The notes beneath the pieces were generated by a model. The model worked only from the letters and a program-made list of their open reading frames with translations. It did not search any database and had not been told where the DNA came from. From the NCBI GenBank assembly GCA_937875395.1, contig CALNCU010000316.1:1-63647 (forward strand): a stretch of 63,647 bases of DNA, in the 5' to 3' direction. The stretch is from an uncultured Armatimonadetes bacterium. GTDB lineage: Bacteria > Armatimonadota > UBA5829 > DTJY01. The position numbers were made by a program, and so were the translations under genes. Shown here piece by piece: positions 1-59,124 of this stretch (its first letter is position 1; every line of letters starts with the position of its first letter).

Positions 1-90
1 TCAACCCCCCCGGGAAGATACTTCGGTCGCAGAGTGCCTTGGCACGCCGCTGCCGAAGCATTGTTTAAACTTGCAAATTCAAGTTTACAG
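1..90 (+). repeat. Structured intergenic repeat, copy A: linker, one core unit (17-59) and a terminal AU-rich hairpin (66-87); the 5' side is cut by the window start
   Basis: GATACTTCGGTCGCAGAGTGCCTTGGCACGCCGCTGCCGAAGC (17-59) is near-identical to 28360-28403 and 38671-38713. It differs from 38735-38777 and from 58595-58634 (reverse strand) only in the apical hairpin. TAAACTTG (66-73) pairs with CAAGTTTA (80-87). Confidence 0.85.
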
Positions 91-142
91 AGTAGTAGTT
101 CATAATATAAGTAATTTGCCGGATAGGGATCAACTCCATCCG

Positions 143-23552: not shown

Positions 23553-24181
23553 AGACTCTTCTTAAAACAGTGAATCCGCAAGCGCCGGAAGCAGATATAA
23601 TTACAGAAGCCGCCGAAATTATAAAAGGCGGCGGGCTGGTGGGCTTTCCCACGGAGACCGTATACGGCCTTGCCGCAGACGCCTTAAATCCGGAGGCCGT
23701 GCGCCGCGTCTATGAGATAAAGGGCCGCCCGGCGGGGAAACCTCTTCCGGTTCAGGTGGCTTCCATAGGGGATGTATACGGGCTTGCATCAGAGGTTACG
23801 GAAAGGGCCGTGCGGCTTATGGAGGCCTTCTTCCCCGGCCCGCTCACACTTATCTTCAAGGCATCCCGCGCGCTCCCGGAGATGGTGACGGCGGGAACGG
23901 GGAAGGTAGGGGTGCGTATGCCTGACAACCCTGTTGCCCTTGCCCTGCTTAACGCCGTGGGAGGGCCTATTGTGGCTCCAAGTGCAAACCCTTCAGATGA
24001 GCCTCCCCCCGTGACCGCGGAAGAGGTAATGAGCTATTTTAACGGCCGGATAGAGATGGTACTCTCTGCAGGGCCGTCTGCAATAAAGTCGGCCTCAACG
24101 GTGCTTGATGTTACCGTAGACCCTCCCAAAATCTTGCGCGCCGGCACCCTTGGCAAAGAAGATCTGAGAAAATATTACTGA
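23549..24181 (+). CDS. tsaC: L-threonylcarbamoyladenylate synthase (YrdC/TsaC type, single domain)
   Basis: GGLVGFPTETVYGLAADA and APSAN motifs. At 210 aa it lacks a Sua5 C-terminal domain. Confidence 0.88.
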   Translation: MKTLLKTVNPQAPEADIITEAAEIIKGGGLVGFPTETVYGLAADALNPEAVRRVYEIKGRPAGKPLPVQVASIGDVYGLASEVTERAVRLMEAFFPGPLTLIFKASRALPEMVTAGTGKVGVRMPDNPVALALLNAVGGPIVAPSANPSDEPPPVTAEEVMSYFNGRIEMVLSAGPSAIKSASTVLDVTVDPPKILRAGTLGKEDLRKYY

Positions 24182-24215
24182 TTCCCGGCGGCAAAGCCGG
24201 AGCCGTTGTCTAAGC
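24180..24215 (+). repeat. Degenerate copy (G) of the structured intergenic repeat
   Basis: GATTCCCGGCGGCAAAGCCGGAGCCGTTGTCTAAGC aligns to the core unit, closest to copy C at 35960-35999 and to the 3' end of the copy at 58658-58702. It begins inside the tsaC stop codon. Confidence 0.45.
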
Positions 24216-28317: not shown

Positions 28318-28340
28318 CCTTGGCGCCGGTACTACTTGGT

Positions 28341-28434
28341 TCATCAAATTATGGGGGGTGATACTTCTGGTCGCAGAGTGCCTTGGCACGCCGCTGCCGA
28401 AGCCCTGTTTGAACTTGTAAATCCAAGATTACTA
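28341..28434 (+). repeat. Structured intergenic repeat, copy B (one unit plus a diverged terminal hairpin)
   Basis: The core at 28360-28403 is identical to copy A except for one inserted T. It is followed by TGTTTGAACTTGTAAATCCAAGATTACTAG. Confidence 0.85.
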
Positions 28435-28498
28435 GCAACTATAAAATATTTGGTTGCATAATTATTACTGTCATGTAAAAATTTTGCAAAAATTCACC

Positions 28499-28527: not shown

Positions 28528-28556
28528 TAGCCGATAACTGGATGGAACGCCTTTAA

Positions 28557-29215
<659 letters not shown>

Positions 29216-31459: not shown

Positions 31460-31544
31460 TTTTGCAGGGGCAAATCTCAATGCCCGCCCGGTTCCGGTGC
31501 CAATCACCGCATAACGCAAGTGTAAGATAAAGAGGAGCAGGAGT

Positions 31545-35950: not shown

Positions 35951-36000
35951 CCGCCGGGTGATACCTCGGTTGCAAAGCCGGAGACGCCGCTGCCGGAGCC
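35951..36000 (+). repeat. Structured intergenic repeat, copy C (single diverged unit, no terminal hairpin)
   Basis: GATACCTCGGTTGCAAAGCCGGAGACGCCGCTGCCGGAGC at 35960-35999. The 3' arm contains the GGAG (35995-35998) that serves as the pyrK Shine-Dalgarno sequence. Confidence 0.75.
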
Positions 36001-37734: not shown

Positions 37735-37815
37735 TATTTGCAAATCCGGGTTCACCAAATTAATCAAGGCGGCTTATGCTTTGGCTCGCGAGTGCAAGTA
37801 CGCCGCCGCCGGAGC
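37735..37815 (+). repeat. Structured intergenic repeat, copy F (degenerate; the hairpin-like piece comes first, then a diverged unit)
   Basis: TTTGCAAATCCGGGTTCAC matches the copy-E terminal hairpin sequence CTTGCAAATCCAGGTTTAC. The unit GCTTTGGCTCGCGAGTGCAAGTACGCCGCCGCCGGAGC ends at 37815. Confidence 0.6.
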
Positions 37816-37861: not shown

Positions 37862-38581
37862 ATGGCGGCAAAGGATAAAATAATTCTGGCACTGGATGTA
37901 AGCAGTGAGAGGGAAGCAGTAGAGCTTGTAACAGAGCTTAAAGATTGCGTGGGAGCCTTTAAGATAGGCCTGGAACTTTTTACATCCCTTGGCCCGCGGA
38001 TAATAGAGGCCGTGAAGAATGCCGGCGCAGAGCGAATTTTCTTTGACGGCAAATTCCATGATATCCCCAACACCGTTGCCGGTGCCGCCCGCGCCGCCGC
38101 CCGGATGGGCGTGTGGATGATGAACGTGCACGCATCCGGCGGGTCTGCCATGATGGCGGCCGCCCGTGATGCCGCCGCAGATGAGGCGGATAAGCTGGGC
38201 ATACCGGCCCCTGTCATAATAGCCGTTACCGTTCTTACAAGTATAAACGCAGAGACTCTGCAGCACGAACTCTCTGTTCCCGTGCTGCTTCAAAACCAGG
38301 TCTCACACCTGGCGCAACTGGCGCAGAACGCCGGGTTGGACGGCGTGGTGGCCTCCCCTCATGAGATTGCGGCAGTCAAAGATACCTGCGGGCCGGAGTT
38401 TATGGTGGTTACACCGGGCGTCCGTCCAGCATGGGCCGCCACAAATGACCAGAAGAGGATTATGACGCCGGGCGATGCGGTGGCAGGCGGGGCGGATTAT
38501 ATTGTAATAGGCCGGGCAATCACCGCTGCAGATGACCGCCGCCTGGCCGCAGAGGCCATTATTGCAGAGATAGGCGGCTAG
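37862..38581 (+). CDS. pyrF: Orotidine 5'-phosphate decarboxylase
   Basis: ILALDV and FFDGKFHDIPNT motifs, 239 aa. Confidence 0.93.
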   Translation: MAAKDKIILALDVSSEREAVELVTELKDCVGAFKIGLELFTSLGPRIIEAVKNAGAERIFFDGKFHDIPNTVAGAARAAARMGVWMMNVHASGGSAMMAAARDAAADEADKLGIPAPVIIAVTVLTSINAETLQHELSVPVLLQNQVSHLAQLAQNAGLDGVVASPHEIAAVKDTCGPEFMVVTPGVRPAWAATNDQKRIMTPGDAVAGGADYIVIGRAITAADDRRLAAEAIIAEIGG

Positions 38582-38606
38582 TAGGCGTGTAAACTTAATT
38601 GTGTCT

Positions 38607-38808
38607 GCGATACCCCGTTCGCAAAGCGAAGTGCGCTGCTGCCAAAGCAAGGTGCATCAACCCGTGGGGCGATACTTCGGTCGCAGAGTGCCTTGGCACG
38701 TCGCTGCCGAAGCAAGGGGTATTACCCCCGGGAAGATACTTCGGTCGCAGAGCACTTTAGTGCGCCGCTGCCGAAGCCATGTTTAAACTTACAAATTCAA
38801 GTTTACAG
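38607..38808 (+). repeat. Structured intergenic repeat, copy D: tandem array of three units (38609-38648 diverged, 38671-38713, 38735-38777) plus a terminal hairpin (38782-38808)
   Basis: Units 2 and 3 have identical flanks but different apical hairpins (GTGCC-TT-GGCAC versus GCACT-TT-AGTGC). The terminal sequence is TTTAAACTTACAAATTCAAGTTTACAG. Confidence 0.9.
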
Positions 38809-38912
38809 ATTGGACACTAACAACCACGGAGAACCCTTGCCCAATACCTGGCCGCAGAGCAGATGCCTCAAATAAAAAAATGACCCCCAAACGCTGCAAG
38901 CCTCGCCGGGGC

Positions 38913-38942
38913 TTGACTCTTCTGCCTCATCCGTTCTATCAT
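38913..38942 (+). promoter_or_regulatory. Sigma-70-type promoter for argF
   Basis: TTGACT (38913-38918), an 18-nt spacer, then TATCAT (38937-38942). Confidence 0.5.
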
Positions 38943-55192: not shown

Positions 55193-55306
55193 GCACCTAA
55201 AGCGCTGCAAAACTTGCTAAATTCTCCACGAAAAGTTAAAATATCACAATAACACAAGCTTAATCACGGTCGATATTCCGACCGCACTCTTGCCCGGAGG
55301 TATTCG

Positions 55307-56429: not shown

Positions 56430-58538
56430 CTATCTTAGAAAGAGCATCTCTGCATAGGTGGGGAGCGGCCATACATTGGCATCAACAAGCATCTCAAGAG
56501 AATCGGCCGCCTTTCGTGCGGATGCCATGGCGGGGATTACCTCATCTCTGTAAGCTGCGGCCTGGTCTCTTAAATCTTCAATGGATTCTGCTTTATCCAG
56601 CGTAGACTCTATGCTGAATATGCCGCTCTGCAGTTCGCCCGTAAGCCGGCATATGTTTGAGAGCACCTTTGTATGGGTCTCTGCATCTGCCCCGCACTCT
56701 TTAAGCGCATTTACTGTGCCGGCCAGTTTCCCCGAATAATCCATAACTGCGGGAAGTATTTGCCGTTTTGCTATGGATATGGTTGTCAGCGCTTCTATAT
56801 GTATCTCCTGACAGTAGCGTTCCAGTATAGTGTCGTACCTTGCCTGCATCTCATGGCTGGTAAGAACGGCATGGCGTTCAAAGAGTTCAATTATATTTTT
56901 ATCGGCCATGGCGGCAAGGGCGTCTACAGCGTTGCAAATATTGGGCAGTCCGCGCTTTTTTGCCTCTTCCGCCCAGCCGCTGGAATAGTTGTCGCCGTTG
57001 AAGATTATTCGCTTATGCTCCTTGATAATCTTATGTACCAGTTCCTGCGCGCTGGCATGAACGTCATCGGCTTTCTCCAGCTTATCCGCCATCTCCTGAA
57101 AGACATCGGCTGCAATTGTGTTCAGTACAAAACAGGGGCCGGATGTAGACTGTGTGGAACCCACCATTCGGAACTCAAACTTGTTGCCGGTAAAAGCAAA
57201 CGGCGAAGTTCTGTTGCGGTCTGTATAATCCTTGGGCAGCGGCGGAAGGGTGCTTACGCCAAATTTTAATACCTCTCTCTTTCTGGGGGATATTTCTCCG
57301 CCGTTCCCCAGCTGATTTAGAATATCCGTGAGCTGGTTTCCCAGGAAGATGGAGATGATTGAGGGCGGGGCTTCGTTTGCGCCCAGTCTTAGATCGTTGC
57401 CGGATGTGGCCACGCTTGCCCTCAGGATGTTTGAGTATTTATCCACAGCCCGTATAATTCCGCAGAGAAACACCAGAAAAGTCTCGTTCTCGTGCGGAGT
57501 CTTTCCCGGATCCAGCAGGTTAAGCCCATCATCCGTTACCAGGCTCCAGTTGTTATGTTTGCCGGAGCCGTTTACACTGGCAAACGGCTTTTCATGCAGA
57601 AGGCAGAAAAATCCGTGCCGCAGCGCAACCTTCTGCATGGTCTCCATGGTAAGCTGGTTGTGGTCTGTTGCTACGTTAACCGTGGCAAATACCGGCGCCA
57701 GTTCGTATTGCGCCGGGGCGGCTTCGTTATGCTGAGTCTTGGCGGAGACTCCAAGCTTCCAGAGTTCGTTGTTCAGCTCAAACATAAAGGATGCTACGCG
57801 TTCGTGCAGGCTGCCGTAGTAGTGGTCATCCATCTCCTGGCCCTTGGGCGGCGCGGCACCAAAGAGCGTTCTGCCCGCAAGCACAATATCAAGCCTGCGT
57901 TCGGCAAACTTTTTATCCACCAGGAAGTATTCTTGCTCTGCGCCAAGCGTGGTAAGCACGCGTTTGGATGTGCTGTTGCCCAGCGCCTTAAGTACCCGCA
58001 TGGCCTGGGTGTTAAGGGCGCCCATAGAACGGAGGAGCGGAGTCTTTTTATCCAGTACCTCGCTGGTATATGAGCAGAATGCGCACGGAATATAAAGGGT
58101 TATGTTTCTTCCGGCCTCTTTTACAAAGACCGGGGATGTTGCATCCCAGGCTGTGTAGCCGCGCGCTTCAAAGGTGACGCGCAGCCCGCCGGACGGAAAG
58201 GCGGATGCATCCGGCTCACCCTTTATCAGTTCCTTGCCGCTGAACTCCATTATGGTGCGGCCGTCAGGGGTGGGGGAGATGAAGGAATCGTGCTTCTCTG
58301 CAGTAACGCCTGTCATGGGTTGGAACCAGTGGCAGAAGTGCGTAGCTCCCTTCTCTATGGCCCAGTCTTTCATTGCTTTTGCAATGATGTCCGCTATGTG
58401 AGGGTCAAGCGGGGCGCCTTCATCTATTGTGCGCTTGATTGCCTGGTAGACATTTGCCGGCAGACGCTTGCGCATAACCCCTTCACTAAAGACGCTGGAA
58501 CCAAACAAATCTGTTACGGGAACTCTCTCTTCGCTCAC
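56430..58538 (-). CDS. glnN: Glutamine synthetase type III
   Basis: About 700 aa with GSIII-type N-terminus (HFCHWFQPMTG) and catalytic domain (NGSGKHNNWS). I chose the GTG at 58538 because GAGAGGA lies 9 nt upstream. The 63 upstream in-frame codons consist of the intergenic repeat and are not counted as coding. Confidence 0.88.
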   Translation of the reverse strand: MSEERVPVTDLFGSSVFSEGVMRKRLPANVYQAIKRTIDEGAPLDPHIADIIAKAMKDWAIEKGATHFCHWFQPMTGVTAEKHDSFISPTPDGRTIMEFSGKELIKGEPDASAFPSGGLRVTFEARGYTAWDATSPVFVKEAGRNITLYIPCAFCSYTSEVLDKKTPLLRSMGALNTQAMRVLKALGNSTSKRVLTTLGAEQEYFLVDKKFAERRLDIVLAGRTLFGAAPPKGQEMDDHYYGSLHERVASFMFELNNELWKLGVSAKTQHNEAAPAQYELAPVFATVNVATDHNQLTMETMQKVALRHGFFCLLHEKPFASVNGSGKHNNWSLVTDDGLNLLDPGKTPHENETFLVFLCGIIRAVDKYSNILRASVATSGNDLRLGANEAPPSIISIFLGNQLTDILNQLGNGGEISPRKREVLKFGVSTLPPLPKDYTDRNRTSPFAFTGNKFEFRMVGSTQSTSGPCFVLNTIAADVFQEMADKLEKADDVHASAQELVHKIIKEHKRIIFNGDNYSSGWAEEAKKRGLPNICNAVDALAAMADKNIIELFERHAVLTSHEMQARYDTILERYCQEIHIEALTTISIAKRQILPAVMDYSGKLAGTVNALKECGADAETHTKVLSNICRLTGELQSGIFSIESTLDKAESIEDLRDQAAAYRDEVIPAMASARKAADSLEMLVDANVWPLPTYAEMLFLR

Positions 58539-58563
58539 TTTAGGATTTCCTCTCTCATCTAGG

Positions 58564-58702
58564 CTGTAAACCTGGATTTGCAAGTTTAAACAAGGCTTCG
58601 GCAGCGGCGCCTCCGGCTCTGCGACCGAAGTATCTTCCCGGGGGATTGATGCCCCTTGCTTAGGCAGCAGCACACTAAAATGCTCTGCGACCGAAGTATT
58701 GC
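58564..58702 (-). repeat. Structured intergenic repeat, copy E: two tandem units (58658-58702, 58595-58634) plus a terminal hairpin (58564-58592), 25 nt upstream of the glnN start
   Basis: The reverse complement reads AATACTTCGGTCGCAGAGCATTTTAGTGTGCTGCTGCCTAAGC ... GATACTTCGGTCGCAGAGCCGGAGGCGCCGCTGCCGAAGC CTTGTTTAAACTTGCAAATCCAGGTTTACAG. Confidence 0.9.
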
Positions 58703-58874
58703 GAACATAATTAAGCTTACACGCCACCAGGCCGCCTTTCGGCCGAGTATAAACGTTATTATCTCTTAATAATGTTTCAGAAATGTTTCGCAGAAGTTAA
58801 AAATACATGAGATGTGCGGCTATTCAGGAAATAGATTGCCAGCTAAAGCATCCTCATACACATTCTGCAATGTA

Positions 58875-59087
58875 TTGACTCAAAAGATGCTCTTGTGGTA
58901 GGCTTAACTGTGGAGAGTAGTATGCATATACGCAAAGAGATCAGTTCGGGCCGGTTTTTCTGGTGGCGTTCTATGGGTATTCACAGTTAGGATGGTAATT
59001 AAGGCTTCCGGCTGTGGAGAGCTTATGCGCTCGCTTGCGGCCGGATTATAGTTGACGTAAAGGCTGGGGCGTTCCCCGGCCTTTTTT
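58875..59087 (+). promoter_or_regulatory. trpS leader: candidate promoter plus a ribosome-mediated (leader-peptide) transcription attenuator
   Basis: TTGACT (58875-58880) with TGgTAGGCT (58896-58904); a leader ORF with TGG TGG; terminator GGCTGGGG-cgtt-CCCCGGCC (59062-59081) plus TTTTTT; alternative pairings are described in the findings. Confidence 0.5.
58922..58990 (+). CDS. Candidate Trp-rich leader peptide (22 aa, MHIRKEISSGRFFWWRSMGIHS)
   Basis: ATG preceded by GGAGAG (58912-58917), tandem Trp codons at 58961-58966 and a TAG stop at 58988-58990, upstream of an intrinsic terminator and trpS. Confidence 0.45.
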   Translation: MHIRKEISSGRFFWWRSMGIHS

Positions 59088-59124
59088 GTTATAAGGCATA
59101 ATTAGAGCATCAAGGAGAGAGTTT

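What the first reader, a model, noticed from the sequence alone, without database searches (positions are those of the whole stretch)
38607..38808. A multi-copy, strand-specific structured RNA-like element with compensatory changes in its apical hairpin
A unit of about 43 nt recurs at 7 or more intergenic loci in 63 kb. In RNA sense it reads GAUACUUCGGUCGCAGAG-[short hairpin]-CGCCGCUGCCGAAGC.

Loci:
- 17-59
- 24180-24215 (degenerate)
- 28360-28403
- 35960-35999
- 37771-37815 (degenerate)
- 38609-38648, 38671-38713 and 38735-38777 (tandem)
- 58658-58702 and 58595-58634 (tandem, minus strand)

Weaker remnants may lie at 31466-31500 and 55198-55232.

Structure: the flanks can pair as CUUCGG/CCGAAG and GCAG/CUGC. 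The apical hairpin differs in sequence between copies but keeps its pairing: GUGCC-UU-GGCAC, GCACU-UU-AGUGC, GCAUU-UU-AGUGU and GCC-GGA-GGC. Between the first two forms, three of the five base pairs change on both sides and stay complementary. The third form pairs only with G-U wobbles. In copy F the outer helix is CUUUGG/CCGGAG, which also pairs only with G-U wobbles. Those pairings work only as RNA of this strand.

At three loci (61-90, 38779-38808, 58564-58592) the last unit is followed by the AU-rich hairpin UAAACUUG-CAAAUU-CAAGUUUA.

All 7 loci are co-oriented with the flanking genes, which has a 1 in 128 chance if orientation were random. I do not recognise this as a known riboswitch, ribozyme, REP, BOX or ERIC family. 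It could be a new structured ncRNA or cis-regulatory motif, a binding array for an RNA-binding protein, or an mRNA processing/stabilising element that spreads like REP sequences.
Basis: partly seen in the sequence, partly recalled or inferred. Interest (0 to 1): 0.8.

Follow-up and report, generated by a model that had tools for sequence, protein, structure and literature searches.

The report
REP-type palindromic repeats with own transposase
The repeated 43-base hairpin unit is real, but it is a family of REP-type mobile DNA palindromes in an Armatimonadota bacterium, linked to a REP-associated (RAYT) transposase gene that is itself flanked by the same units; it is not a strand-specific structured RNA.

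Summary
The unit GATACTTCGGTCGCAGAG-[hairpin]-CGCCGCTGCCGAAGC is real. The loci at 24180, 31466 and 55198 are not copies. Public metagenomes gave 113 more stretches, with about 256 units in 660 kb. The apical hairpin does covary (CG/UA, GC/CG/AU, UA/CG).

The RNA reading fails on the larger set:
- Arrays lie in both orientations between co-directional genes (45:25; 20:15 with strict gene calls).
- A:C mismatches outnumber G:T wobbles (58:24).
- The opposite strand folds better.
- Related species lack the units at the same pyr-operon sites.
- One strain has 2 units instead of 3 after pyrF.

Contigs with the window's tetranucleotide composition carry a 159-aa HUH/Tyr transposase (Pfam Y1_Tnp; NCBIfam REP-associated tyrosine transposase; PDB 4ER8 TnpA_REP). 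It is flanked by inverted pairs of these units. Its orthologues in two other genomes are flanked by the same repeat family.

This is a REP/RAYT ("REPtron") system with BIME/BOX-like mosaic arms. It is a new member of a known kind, in a phylum the two REP/RAYT surveys I text-searched do not mention. Effects on mRNA are possible but untested.

The parts
1..16 (+). End of a spacer hairpin module (..TCAACCCCCCCGGGAA), cut off by the window start
   Evidence: Same sequence as the inter-unit spacer AAGGGGCATCAACCCCCGGGGC seen in arrays
17..59 (+). REP unit, apical hairpin GTGCC-TT-GGCAC
   Evidence: CM 64.7 bits, E 2e-16
60..98 (+). Right arm R1 (TTGTTTAAACTTGCAAATTCAAGTTTACAGAGTAGTAG), contains the AU-rich hairpin
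   Evidence: same arm ends many arrays in other loci
28340..28359 (+). Left arm, L2-like (TTCATCAAATTATGGGGGGT)
   Evidence: Read; resembles L2 CACCAAATTAATTATGG
28360..28403 (+). REP unit with a 1-nt insertion in the 5' stem
   Evidence: CM 52.5 bits, E 7e-13
28404..28440 (+). Right arm R1, degenerate (CCTGTTTGAACTTGTAAATCCAAGATTACTAG)
35960..35999 (+). Solo REP unit that fills the 60-nt carB-pyrK spacer
   Evidence: CM 48.9 bits. In two related species carB and pyrK overlap or abut, with no unit between them
37750..37772 (+). Left arm, L2-like (GTTCACCAAATTAATCAAGGCGG)
37775..37815 (+). Degenerate REP unit between pyrD and pyrF
   Evidence: CM 22.1 bits, E 5e-4
38580..38608 (+). Left arm L1 (AGTAGGCGTGTAAACTTAATTGTGTCTGC). 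It begins in the pyrF stop codon and can pair with R1
38609..38648 (+). REP unit 1 of the array (diverged)
   Evidence: CM 39.9 bits
38649..38670 (+). Spacer hairpin module
   Evidence: TRF period 64
38671..38713 (+). REP unit 2
   Evidence: CM 62.5 bits. One array period (about 64 nt), spanning parts of units 1 and 2, is missing in strain variant L117, which has 2 units
38714..38734 (+). Spacer hairpin module (GGGG-TATTA-CCCC)
38735..38777 (+). REP unit 3, apical hairpin GCACT-TT-AGTGC
   Evidence: CM 64.6 bits
38778..38812 (+). Right arm R1 with the AU-rich hairpin
58564..58594 (-). Right arm R1; it ends about 20 nt upstream of the ribosome-binding site of the type III glutamine synthetase gene
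58595..58634 (-). REP unit, apical hairpin GCC-GGA-GGC
   Evidence: CM 67.4 bits
58635..58657 (-). Spacer hairpin module
58658..58700 (-). REP unit, apical hairpin GCATT-TT-AGTGT
   Evidence: CM 45.2 bits
58701..58729 (-). Left arm L1 (TGGTGGCGTGTAAGCTTAATTATGTTCGC)

Best explanation
The units are REP-type (repetitive extragenic palindrome) DNA elements of an Armatimonadota bacterium, together with their mosaic accessory modules. They are the cognate repeats of a REP-associated tyrosine (HUH/Y1) transposase, a RAYT.

Shown:
- A 38-48-nt imperfect palindrome, preceded by a conserved GAT[A/G] foot, is present in hundreds of copies. All credible copies are extragenic.
- Copies occur as singlets, head-to-tail arrays of 2-7 units (period about 64 nt, with a second small hairpin as spacer) and inverted pairs.
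- They often sit between arm modules (L1/L2 on the left, R1/R2/R3 on the right) that can pair with each other.
- Copies lie in both orientations and prefer the 3' ends of genes.
- They differ in number between strains and are missing from the same sites in related species.
- A single-locus RAYT gene, on contigs of the same composition, is flanked by inverted pairs of the units. Its orthologues in two other genomes are flanked by the same family.

Inferred by analogy with E. coli TnpA_REP and IS200/IS605:
- During replication the hairpin folds in single-stranded DNA.
- The RAYT recognises the conserved foot, lower stem and internal loops, then cuts and rejoins there. This spreads and maintains the units.
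- The apical stem-loop would not be contacted. It is therefore free to change as long as it still pairs, which explains the 'compensatory' tips.
- Arrays grow and shrink by unequal recombination between units.
- When a unit lies inside a transcript (for example carB-pyrK) it will also fold in the mRNA and may affect its stability. That would be a side effect or a secondary recruitment.
For: Size of the family:
- One metagenome scan returned 113 stretches. They hold 256 units at nhmmer E<=1e-3 in 660 kb.
- After removing redundant contigs there are 152 arrays of 1-7 units.
- Modules combine as a mosaic.

Position and orientation:
- Convergent 29 against divergent 4 (p=1e-5). Co-directional sense 45 against antisense 25.
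- With both flanking ORFs >=200 aa: 20 sense, 15 antisense, 14 convergent, 2 divergent.
- About 16 inverted pairs lie within 29-208 nt of each other.

Transposase:
- L105 ORF 791-1270(-) scores Pfam Y1_Tnp 26.6 bits (cut-off 23). It scores NCBIfam NF047646 REP-associated tyrosine transposase 77.9 bits, E 7e-22. It matches PDB 4ER8 TnpA_REP at E 9e-8.
- The HUH motif (PEHVHMM) and the Tyr motif (INYIHRNPV) align with those of the E. coli protein.
- In L121-L125 two '+' units lie just upstream of the gene and two '-' units start right after its stop codon.
- L022 is the same locus (98.8% identical) without the gene.
- Tetranucleotide correlation between the window and the RAYT contigs is 0.96. 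The two halves of the window give 0.98. Related species give 0.16-0.37.
- RAYT orthologues (57% identity) in GCA_054604175.1 (L129) and in a 5.4-Mb genome (L130) are flanked by the same REP family, including an inverted doublet and a 5-unit array.

Mobility and dynamics:
- carB and pyrK overlap or abut in two related species (CarB 83% identical). There are no units in their pyr operons.
- Strain L117 has 2 units instead of 3 after pyrF.

Hairpin tips:
- 104 of 225 tips are GNA triloops, and 34 units contain GCGNAGC. This is the sequence of the very stable DNA mini-hairpin (PMC13037366).

Literature:
- Coexisting self-complementary loop variants, location between unidirectional and convergent genes, and REP-flanked RAYT genes (REPtrons) are described features of REP families (PMC3733652; PMC6006769).
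Against: - The 5' foot is GAT[A/G], not the canonical GT[AG]G or CGTC.
- The NCBIfam equivalog score falls 2 bits short of its cut-off.
- Head-to-tail arrays predominate over the inverted doublets (REPINs) thought to be the mobile unit in Pseudomonas and E. coli.
- The RAYT was not found in the window. In the sample that matches the window (Ga0172377) only the RAYT-less allele (L022) was recovered, so the window's own strain may lack the gene.
- The link between the RAYT contigs and the window genome rests on composition, shared repeats and 98.8% identical flanks. They are not on one contig.
- No transposition intermediate or target-site signature was shown.
- The left and right arms look like terminal inverted repeats, so a second mobilising mechanism is not excluded.
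- The excess of A:C over G:T mismatches is unexplained.
Confidence: 0.85

Rival explanations
1. One reading: a strand-specific structured non-coding or cis-regulatory RNA motif, or a binding array for an RNA-binding protein. It would be selected for its fold in transcripts of the named strand.
For: - The apical hairpin covaries.
- All 9 window copies are co-oriented with a neighbouring gene.
- Two window copies pair only with G-U wobbles on this strand.
- The family shows a weak overall sense bias of 45:25.
- Units inside operons, such as carB-pyrK, must be transcribed.
Against: - With well-supported flanking genes, sense and antisense are 20:15 (p=0.5). L1-R1 arrays like those in the window also occur antisense (L006, L059).
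- A:C mismatches (58) outnumber G:T (24), in both sense and antisense contexts.
- The opposite strand pairs and folds better.
- The outer helices do not covary.
- The units are absent from orthologous sites in related species and vary in copy number between strains.
- Rfam gives no match.
- A cognate RAYT explains the family.
- 63% of the tips are triloops, mostly GNA, which are favoured in DNA rather than RNA.
Confidence: 0.04
2. A miniature inverted-repeat transposable element. The mobile unit would be the whole composite L1-(unit-spacer)n-R1, about 110-230 nt, moved by a DDE transposase that recognises the arm sequences CTAGTGGCGTGTAAACTT...AAGTTTACAGAGTACTAG. The REP-like units would be cargo or later insertions.
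For: - L1 and R1 (and L2 and R2) are imperfect inverted repeats that close the element into one long hairpin.
- The same composite recurs at many loci.
- Arms are nearly always found next to a unit or a decayed unit.
Against: - Bare units without arms insert on their own (35960-35999).
- The RAYT gene is flanked by bare units and spacers, not by arms.
- Arms combine freely (L1/R2, L2/R1, L2/R3), which is not expected for one transposase's ends.
- No target-site duplication or matching transposase was seen. Neither was searched for exhaustively.
Confidence: 0.07
3. REP elements whose present role is mainly a host function. They could protect upstream mRNA from 3' exonucleases, tune expression within operons, or bind nucleoid proteins or gyrase, as reported for E. 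coli REP/BIME. The RAYT would be only their historical source.
For: - There is a strong preference for the 3' ends of genes (convergent 29 against divergent 4).
- Units lie inside the pyr operon and immediately upstream of the glutamine synthetase ribosome-binding site.
- The repeat consensus is conserved across species whose CarB proteins are only 83% identical.
- Such roles are described for REPs (PMC6006769 background; PMC3733652 abstract).
Against: - No expression data are available.
- Individual copies are not conserved at orthologous sites.
- The position bias can equally reflect purifying selection against insertions in promoters.
- No intrinsic terminator accompanies the pyrF array.
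Confidence: 0.3

Closest known systems
E. coli REP/BIME elements with TnpA_REP (RAYT; the 'REPtron'; PDB 4ER8)
   Same: - High-copy extragenic imperfect palindromes with a conserved 5' tetranucleotide foot, a bulged stem and coexisting self-complementary tip variants.
- Mosaic clusters with other short motifs.
- Location after genes.
- A transposase gene of the Y1/HUH family, seen at one locus, flanked by inverted copies of the repeat (PMC3733652; PMC6006769).
   Different: - The foot is GAT[A/G] rather than GTAG.
- There is no sequence similarity between the repeats.
- Clusters are mostly head-to-tail with a 64-nt period, not alternating Y/Z inverted pairs.
- The RAYT scores just under the NCBIfam equivalog cut-off and matches the E. 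coli protein only weakly (phmmer E 9e-8 over about 140 aligned residues).
- The host is Armatimonadota.
Pseudomonas REPIN-RAYT systems (Bertels and Rainey)
   Same: - A transposase seen at one locus, associated with a lineage-specific, abundant repeat family.
- Inverted doublets exist here too (about 16 pairs; an inverted doublet lies upstream of the L130 RAYT).
- Repeat and RAYT persist together across related species.
   Different: Only a minority of units form inverted doublets. Singlets (90 arrays) and direct arrays (62) dominate.
Streptococcus pneumoniae BOX elements (boxA-boxB(n)-boxC). This comparison rests on my own knowledge; no paper was checked here.
   Same: - Modular architecture: a left arm, a variable number (1-7) of tandem ~45-64-nt middle units, and a right arm that can pair with the left arm.
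- Copy number of the middle unit varies between strains.
   Different: - No sequence similarity.
- BOX has no known dedicated transposase.
- Here the middle unit is itself the RAYT-associated palindrome and also occurs alone.
Atypical REP-like families and 'TIRtrons' around RAYT-like genes (Di Nocera 2013; Quentin 2018 subclass 2.6 and class 3)
   Same: RAYT-like genes flanked by non-GTAG secondary structures that are also dispersed in the genome, up to hundreds of copies, with other feet such as CnGA.
   Different: Those were described in Bacteroidetes, Acidobacteria, Planctomycetes and Proteobacteria. The sequences, the foot and the array organisation differ here.
Subterminal hairpins of IS200/IS605 insertion sequences
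   Same: Imperfect hairpins with a 5' guide tetranucleotide, recognised as single-stranded DNA by a Y1 HUH transposase.
   Different: Here the repeats are dispersed without the gene. The gene was seen at only one locus. The protein matches the RAYT model far better than the IS200 model (77.9 against 23.1 bits).

Membership tests
REP / RAYT (REPtron) system | Short (about 20-65 nt) imperfect palindrome in high copy number, extragenic | tested here: met
   Units are 38-48 nt. There are 9 in the 63.6-kb window and 256 in 660 kb of related contigs. I checked some apparent 'inside ORF' cases: arrays read open as short spurious ORFs, the N-terminal over-extension of the GS ORF, and L098. All of those were artefacts. 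The remaining flagged cases were not inspected one by one.
REP / RAYT (REPtron) system | Conserved tetranucleotide at the 5' foot of the hairpin (canonically GT[AG]G; CGTC in the other superfamily) | tested here: inconclusive
   A conserved foot exists: GATA in more than 120 units and GATG in more than 34. GATG is also found in two other species. It is neither GTAG nor CGTC. Non-canonical feet are reported for atypical families.
REP / RAYT (REPtron) system | Cognate Y1/HUH transposase of the RAYT type with HUH and catalytic Tyr motifs | tested here: met
   Pfam Y1_Tnp is above its gathering score. NCBIfam REP_Tyr_transpos scores 77.9 bits (cut-off 80), against 23.1 for IS200. PDB 4ER8 matches at E 9e-8, with PEHVH and YIHRNP aligned. 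The gene is on contigs of the same composition as the window, not in the window itself.
REP / RAYT (REPtron) system | RAYT gene flanked by copies of the same repeat in inverted orientation | tested here: met
   L105 and L121-L125 have two units on each side of the gene, in opposite orientations. The same holds for the orthologues in L129 and L130.
REP / RAYT (REPtron) system | RAYT present as a single copy, unlike insertion sequences | tested here: inconclusive
   tblastn finds one locus in 660 kb. All 5 public contigs with the identical protein show the same neighbourhood. No closed genome of this organism was available.
REP / RAYT (REPtron) system | Preference for regions between convergent and co-directional genes; both orientations occur | tested here: met
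   Convergent 29, co-directional 70 (45 sense, 25 antisense), divergent 4. The strict set gives 14, 35 and 2.
REP / RAYT (REPtron) system | RAYT binds and cleaves the folded single-stranded repeat | not testable with these tools
   This needs purified protein and top- and bottom-strand oligonucleotides.
REPIN (inverted REP doublet as the replicating unit) | Most units arranged as inverted pairs with a conserved short spacer | tested here: not met
   There are about 16 inverted pairs, against 90 singlet arrays and 62 head-to-tail arrays.
Structured RNA family (Rfam or a new one) | Match to a curated family, or strand-specific covariation along the whole structure | tested here: not met
   No Rfam match at gathering score in the window, and nothing relevant at E<=10 around the array. 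Covariation is limited to the tip, and mismatches favour the other strand.
Miniature inverted-repeat transposable element (MITE) | Terminal inverted repeats plus a target-site duplication; gain of the whole element at empty sites | tested here: inconclusive
   Arm pairs L1/R1 and L2/R2 behave like terminal inverted repeats. The one empty-site comparison available (carB-pyrK) shows gain of a bare unit without arms. No target duplication was identified.
CRISPR array | Identical repeats separated by unique spacers | tested here: not met
   The 21-nt 'spacers' are themselves a conserved repeated hairpin module.
PyrR binding site (Rfam RF00515) | Match to the PyrR attenuator model in pyr leaders | tested here: not met
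   The units do not match. A separate sub-threshold PyrR site lies at 28546-28655, downstream of the unit at 28360-28403.

The most novel reading that the evidence does not exclude
This could be a distinct REP lineage of Armatimonadota, with a GAT[A/G] foot and its own RAYT clade. It would amplify mainly as head-to-tail arrays of a two-hairpin 64-nt module capped by pairing arms, a BOX-like A-B(n)-C architecture, rather than as inverted REPIN doublets. That would point to a different mode of RAYT-driven propagation. The consistent excess of A:C over G:T mismatches would then mark the complementary strand as the one whose fold is selected, that is, the RAYT substrate strand. The arrays could in addition be recruited as mRNA stability elements inside operons.
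Probability: 0.3. Interest if true: 0.45.

Novelty: new member of a known kind. Interest (0 to 1): 0.25.

Why it matters
- It removes a false lead. Compensatory changes in a hairpin tip and local co-orientation with genes looked like a new structured RNA. The family-wide data show a mobile DNA palindrome with its own transposase.
- It records a REP/RAYT system in Armatimonadota. A text search of the two survey papers I consulted finds no mention of this phylum (PMC3733652, PMC6006769). The foot is non-canonical and the arrays are unusually head-to-tail.
- It has practical consequences. These repeats break metagenome assemblies: contigs end right after the Clp_N gene in L143 and L144. They are read as coding sequence by gene callers: the glutamine synthetase ORF is extended by 48 codons. 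They can also expose mis-binned contigs.
- Strain-level copy-number differences could serve as typing markers.

Tried and rejected
- Rfam at gathering score over the whole window, and at E<=10 around the pyrF array: nothing relevant.
- tRNA/tmRNA scan: none.
- Intrinsic terminators in or next to the pyrF array: none. A promoter-like site for argF lies downstream at 38913-38942.
- PyrR attenuator: a separate site, not the unit.
- CRISPR reading: rejected, because the spacers are conserved.
- The single genome-contig scan gave only one 1-kb contig, labelled Synergistaceae. That label conflicts with the CarB and RAYT relatives, which are Armatimonadota, so I did not use it for taxonomy.
- Cluster look-up for names: masked for the window's own proteins.
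I reached it through the search for homologous proteins instead.
- First ORF-based orientation count: 61 units appeared to lie inside ORFs. Those I checked were artefacts: ORFs read through repeat arrays, or over-long N-termini. I redid the count with the units masked, then with strict flanking ORFs.
- Genes lying between inverted units in L072, L056 and L006 are ordinary or unannotated proteins, not transposases.
- Search for arm-only (L1-R1) elements without a unit: the candidates hold decayed units.
- Looking for further strain polymorphism next to trpS and the Clp_N gene: spacing is identical in all contigs.
- Transcription-linked mutation bias as the cause of the A:C excess: rejected, because the excess has the same sign in sense and antisense contexts.
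Full report
**1. What is in the window.**

The region after pyrF (38580-38812) reads as follows:
- a left arm, L1 (GGCGTGTAAACTTAATTGTGT);
- three units of the form GATACTTCGGTCGCAGAG-[small hairpin]-CGCCGCTGCCGAAGC;
- a second small hairpin (GGGG-loop-CCCC) separating the units;
- a right arm, R1 (TGTTTAAACTTACAAATTCAAGTTTACAG).

TRF reports the 64-nt period. The flank motifs and the AU-rich hairpin occur far more often than in shuffles.

I built a covariance model from 133 distinct units and ran it over the window with filters off. It finds eight strong units: 17-59, 28360-28403, 35960-35999, 38609-38648, 38671-38713, 38735-38777, 58595-58634(-) and 58658-58700(-). It also finds one degenerate unit at 37775-37815. 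The proposed loci at 24180, 31466 and 55198 do not match.

The neighbouring genes are housekeeping genes:
- feoB;
- a Clp_N protein and pyrR;
- carB, pyrK, pyrD, pyrF and argF;
- type III glutamine synthetase and trpS.

**2. A much larger sample.**

One pattern scan of public metagenome contigs returned 113 stretches, mostly from three related samples. Together with the window they hold 256 units at nhmmer E<=1e-3 in 660 kb. Redundancy is small.

After removing redundant contigs there are 152 arrays: 90 singlets, 47 doublets, 11 triplets, 3 of four units and 1 of seven.

The units are embedded in a mosaic of other short repeated modules:
- left arms L1, L2 and L4;
- right arms R1, R2, R3 and R5;
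- the spacer hairpin.

These occur in many combinations. L1 pairs with R1, and L2 with R2, so a whole element can close into one long hairpin. About 16 pairs of units lie in inverted orientation within 29-208 nt of each other.

**3. Tests of the RNA reading.**

(a) Covariation. The apical stem covaries: CG 79 and UA 41; GC 44, CG 43 and AU 15; UA 14 and CG 13. 0 of 500 shuffles reach the observed score. The two outer helices only decay and do not covary. The outer flanks were used to find the loci, which limits what can be said about them.

(b) Strand. If the named strand were the folded RNA, transitions in the stems should survive as G:U.
- Instead A:C mismatches outnumber G:T by 58 to 24. 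An A:C mismatch is a G:U wobble only on the other strand.
- By distinct sequences the count is 55 to 24, p=6e-4. The excess has the same sign whether the unit is sense or antisense to its neighbours.
- On the same 15 pairs, 93.2% of cells pair on the complementary strand against 85.8% on the named strand.
- The complement folds better as RNA (-25.5 against -19.6 kcal/mol) and as DNA (-10.8 against -9.7). The same holds for the whole pyrF array (z -4.6 against -2.8).

(c) Orientation.
- Between co-directional genes, 45 arrays are sense and 25 antisense.
- With both flanking ORFs >=200 aa and within 400 nt, the split is 20:15 (p=0.5).
- L1-R1 arrays like those in the window also occur antisense.
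- What is strongly biased is position: convergent 29 against divergent 4 (p=1e-5).

(d) Conservation.
- In two related species (CarB 83% identical), carB and pyrK overlap or abut. The 60-nt spacer that consists of the unit at 35960-35999 does not exist there.
- Their pyr operons hold no units.
- A strain with an identical PyrF protein has two units instead of three after pyrF. The junction is what recombination between units 1 and 2 would give.

(e) Rfam has no match. The true pyr leader element is a separate, sub-threshold PyrR site at 28546-28655.

**4. The transposase.**

Comparing two contigs of the same locus (98.8% identical) showed that L105 carries about 800 extra bases between units. 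The insert encodes a 159-aa protein with these matches:
- Pfam Y1_Tnp, 26.6 bits (cut-off 23);
- NCBIfam 'REP-associated tyrosine transposase', 77.9 bits (cut-off 80), against 23 bits for the IS200 model;
- the solved E. coli TnpA_REP structure (PDB 4ER8), E 9e-8;
- aligned HUH (PEHVH) and Tyr (YIHRNP) motifs.

Five public contigs carry the identical protein at one locus. Two units in the sense of the gene lie just upstream. Two units in the opposite sense start right after the stop codon.

These contigs have the same tetranucleotide composition as the window (r=0.96). The two halves of the window give 0.98, and related species give 0.16-0.37.

The closest named relatives of both the RAYT and the window's CarB are Armatimonadota MAGs. 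RAYT orthologues (57% identity) in GCA_054604175.1 and in a 5.4-Mb genome are flanked by recognisable versions of the same repeat (GATGCTTCGG..GCAGAG..CGCT.CCG.AGC). These include an inverted doublet and a five-unit array.

A unit elsewhere in GCA_054604175.1 keeps the conserved flanks but has a quite different, longer apical hairpin.

This is the arrangement called a REPtron in the literature (PMC6006769; PMC3733652).

**5. How it most likely works.**

Shown:
- a high-copy extragenic palindrome family;
- both orientations, with a bias towards the 3' ends of genes;
- turnover between strains and species;
- a cognate RAYT flanked by the repeats, in three genomes.

Inferred by analogy with E. 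coli TnpA_REP and IS200/IS605 (PMC3479197; PMC6006769):
- The hairpin folds in single-stranded DNA at the replication fork.
- The RAYT reads the foot and the lower, conserved part of the stem, and cuts and rejoins there.
- The tip is not read. It may therefore change, provided it still closes. That would produce the 'compensatory' tips.

Coexisting self-complementary loop variants within one REP family are already described (PMC3733652). The tips are mostly triloops (141 of 225), and 104 of them are GNA. 34 units contain GCGNAGC, the sequence of the exceptionally stable DNA mini-hairpin (PMC13037366). This fits a DNA-level fold but does not prove it.

Template switching within a palindrome can also copy a change from one arm to the other without any selection. 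This point is my own knowledge. It means two-sided changes in a DNA palindrome are weaker evidence for selection than in an ordinary RNA alignment.

Arrays change length by unequal recombination.

Units inside transcripts will also fold as RNA. A secondary role in mRNA stability, as reported for E. coli REPs, is possible but untested.

**6. What does not fit neatly.**
- The foot is GAT[A/G], not GTAG or CGTC.
- Head-to-tail arrays dominate over inverted doublets.
- The arms look like terminal inverted repeats.
- The sample that matches the window yielded only the RAYT-less allele (L022), so the window's own strain may lack the gene.
- The A:C excess is unexplained. It may mark the complementary strand as the selected one.

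**7. Verdict.**

The interpretation as a new strand-specific RNA is not. The finding is a new member of a known kind, a REP/RAYT system with BIME/BOX-like mosaic architecture. It comes from a phylum that a text search of the two REP/RAYT surveys I consulted does not find mentioned. Interest is modest.

Noticed in passing
window 28546-28655 (+): A PyrR binding site / attenuator (Rfam RF00515) lies upstream of pyrR. It scores 44.8 bits, below the gathering score of 54 (E 1e-4), and ends in a U-run. It is probably the real cis-regulatory RNA of this pyr operon, in a diverged form that the default Rfam scan misses.
   Followed up: partly
window 58880-59095 (+), terminator-like hairpin 59059-59084: About 200 nt upstream of trpS ends in a strong hairpin plus T-run, right before the ribosome-binding site. 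This looks like an attenuator or T-box-type leader. Rfam gives only chance-level matches (best STnc390, 24.7 bits).
   Followed up: partly
window 58527-58727 (-); L131, L133-L137: Public gene calls give the type III glutamine synthetase 765 aa (747 aa in L132) by reading through the REP array. With the units masked, the ORF is 717 aa. A GTG preceded by GAGAGG near 58527 looks like the true start. The repeat array inflates the annotated N-terminus.
   Followed up: partly
L001 (JALHFZ010000232.1, 1088 nt): This contig is labelled Synergistaceae MAG. It carries two of these units plus the R5 module, while the window's CarB and the RAYT both have Armatimonadota as closest named relatives. The contig is probably mis-binned.
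   Followed up: partly
L001 ~750-790, L010 ~1520-1550, L038, L040 (module R5); many loci (module R3): Other repeated modules accompany the units. One is a GC-rich hairpin, CGGGCGGGCACAGAGACCCGCCCCTACGG. Another is a ~50-nt module, ATATGTAGATAATTGAGCACCCTGC...GGCTTCGCCCGC. They may be separate repeat families of the same genome.
   Followed up: no
All units (alignment A1): Transitions in the stems leave A:C mismatches 2.3 times more often than G:T, whatever the orientation to genes. On the unit's named strand, G>A changes (40) outnumber C>T (13). The cause is unknown. It could be selection on the complementary strand's fold or a strand-specific mutation process.
   Followed up: partly
L022 3480-3700 versus L105 600-1694: The RAYT locus is polymorphic in the population. 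One allele has the gene between inverted unit pairs. The other has a single composite element between the same aldolase and alcohol dehydrogenase genes. The break lies inside two identical units, as expected for deletion by recombination.
   Followed up: yes
L034 and L098 (Ga0326727 contigs, GC 56%): Units with the same conserved flanks occur in contigs whose composition differs clearly from the window (r=0.33-0.39). The family therefore extends to at least one further, unidentified organism.
   Followed up: no
L143, L144 (contigs ending about 95 nt after the Clp_N gene): Several public contigs stop at the unit at window position 28360. This fits assemblies breaking at these repeats.
   Followed up: no
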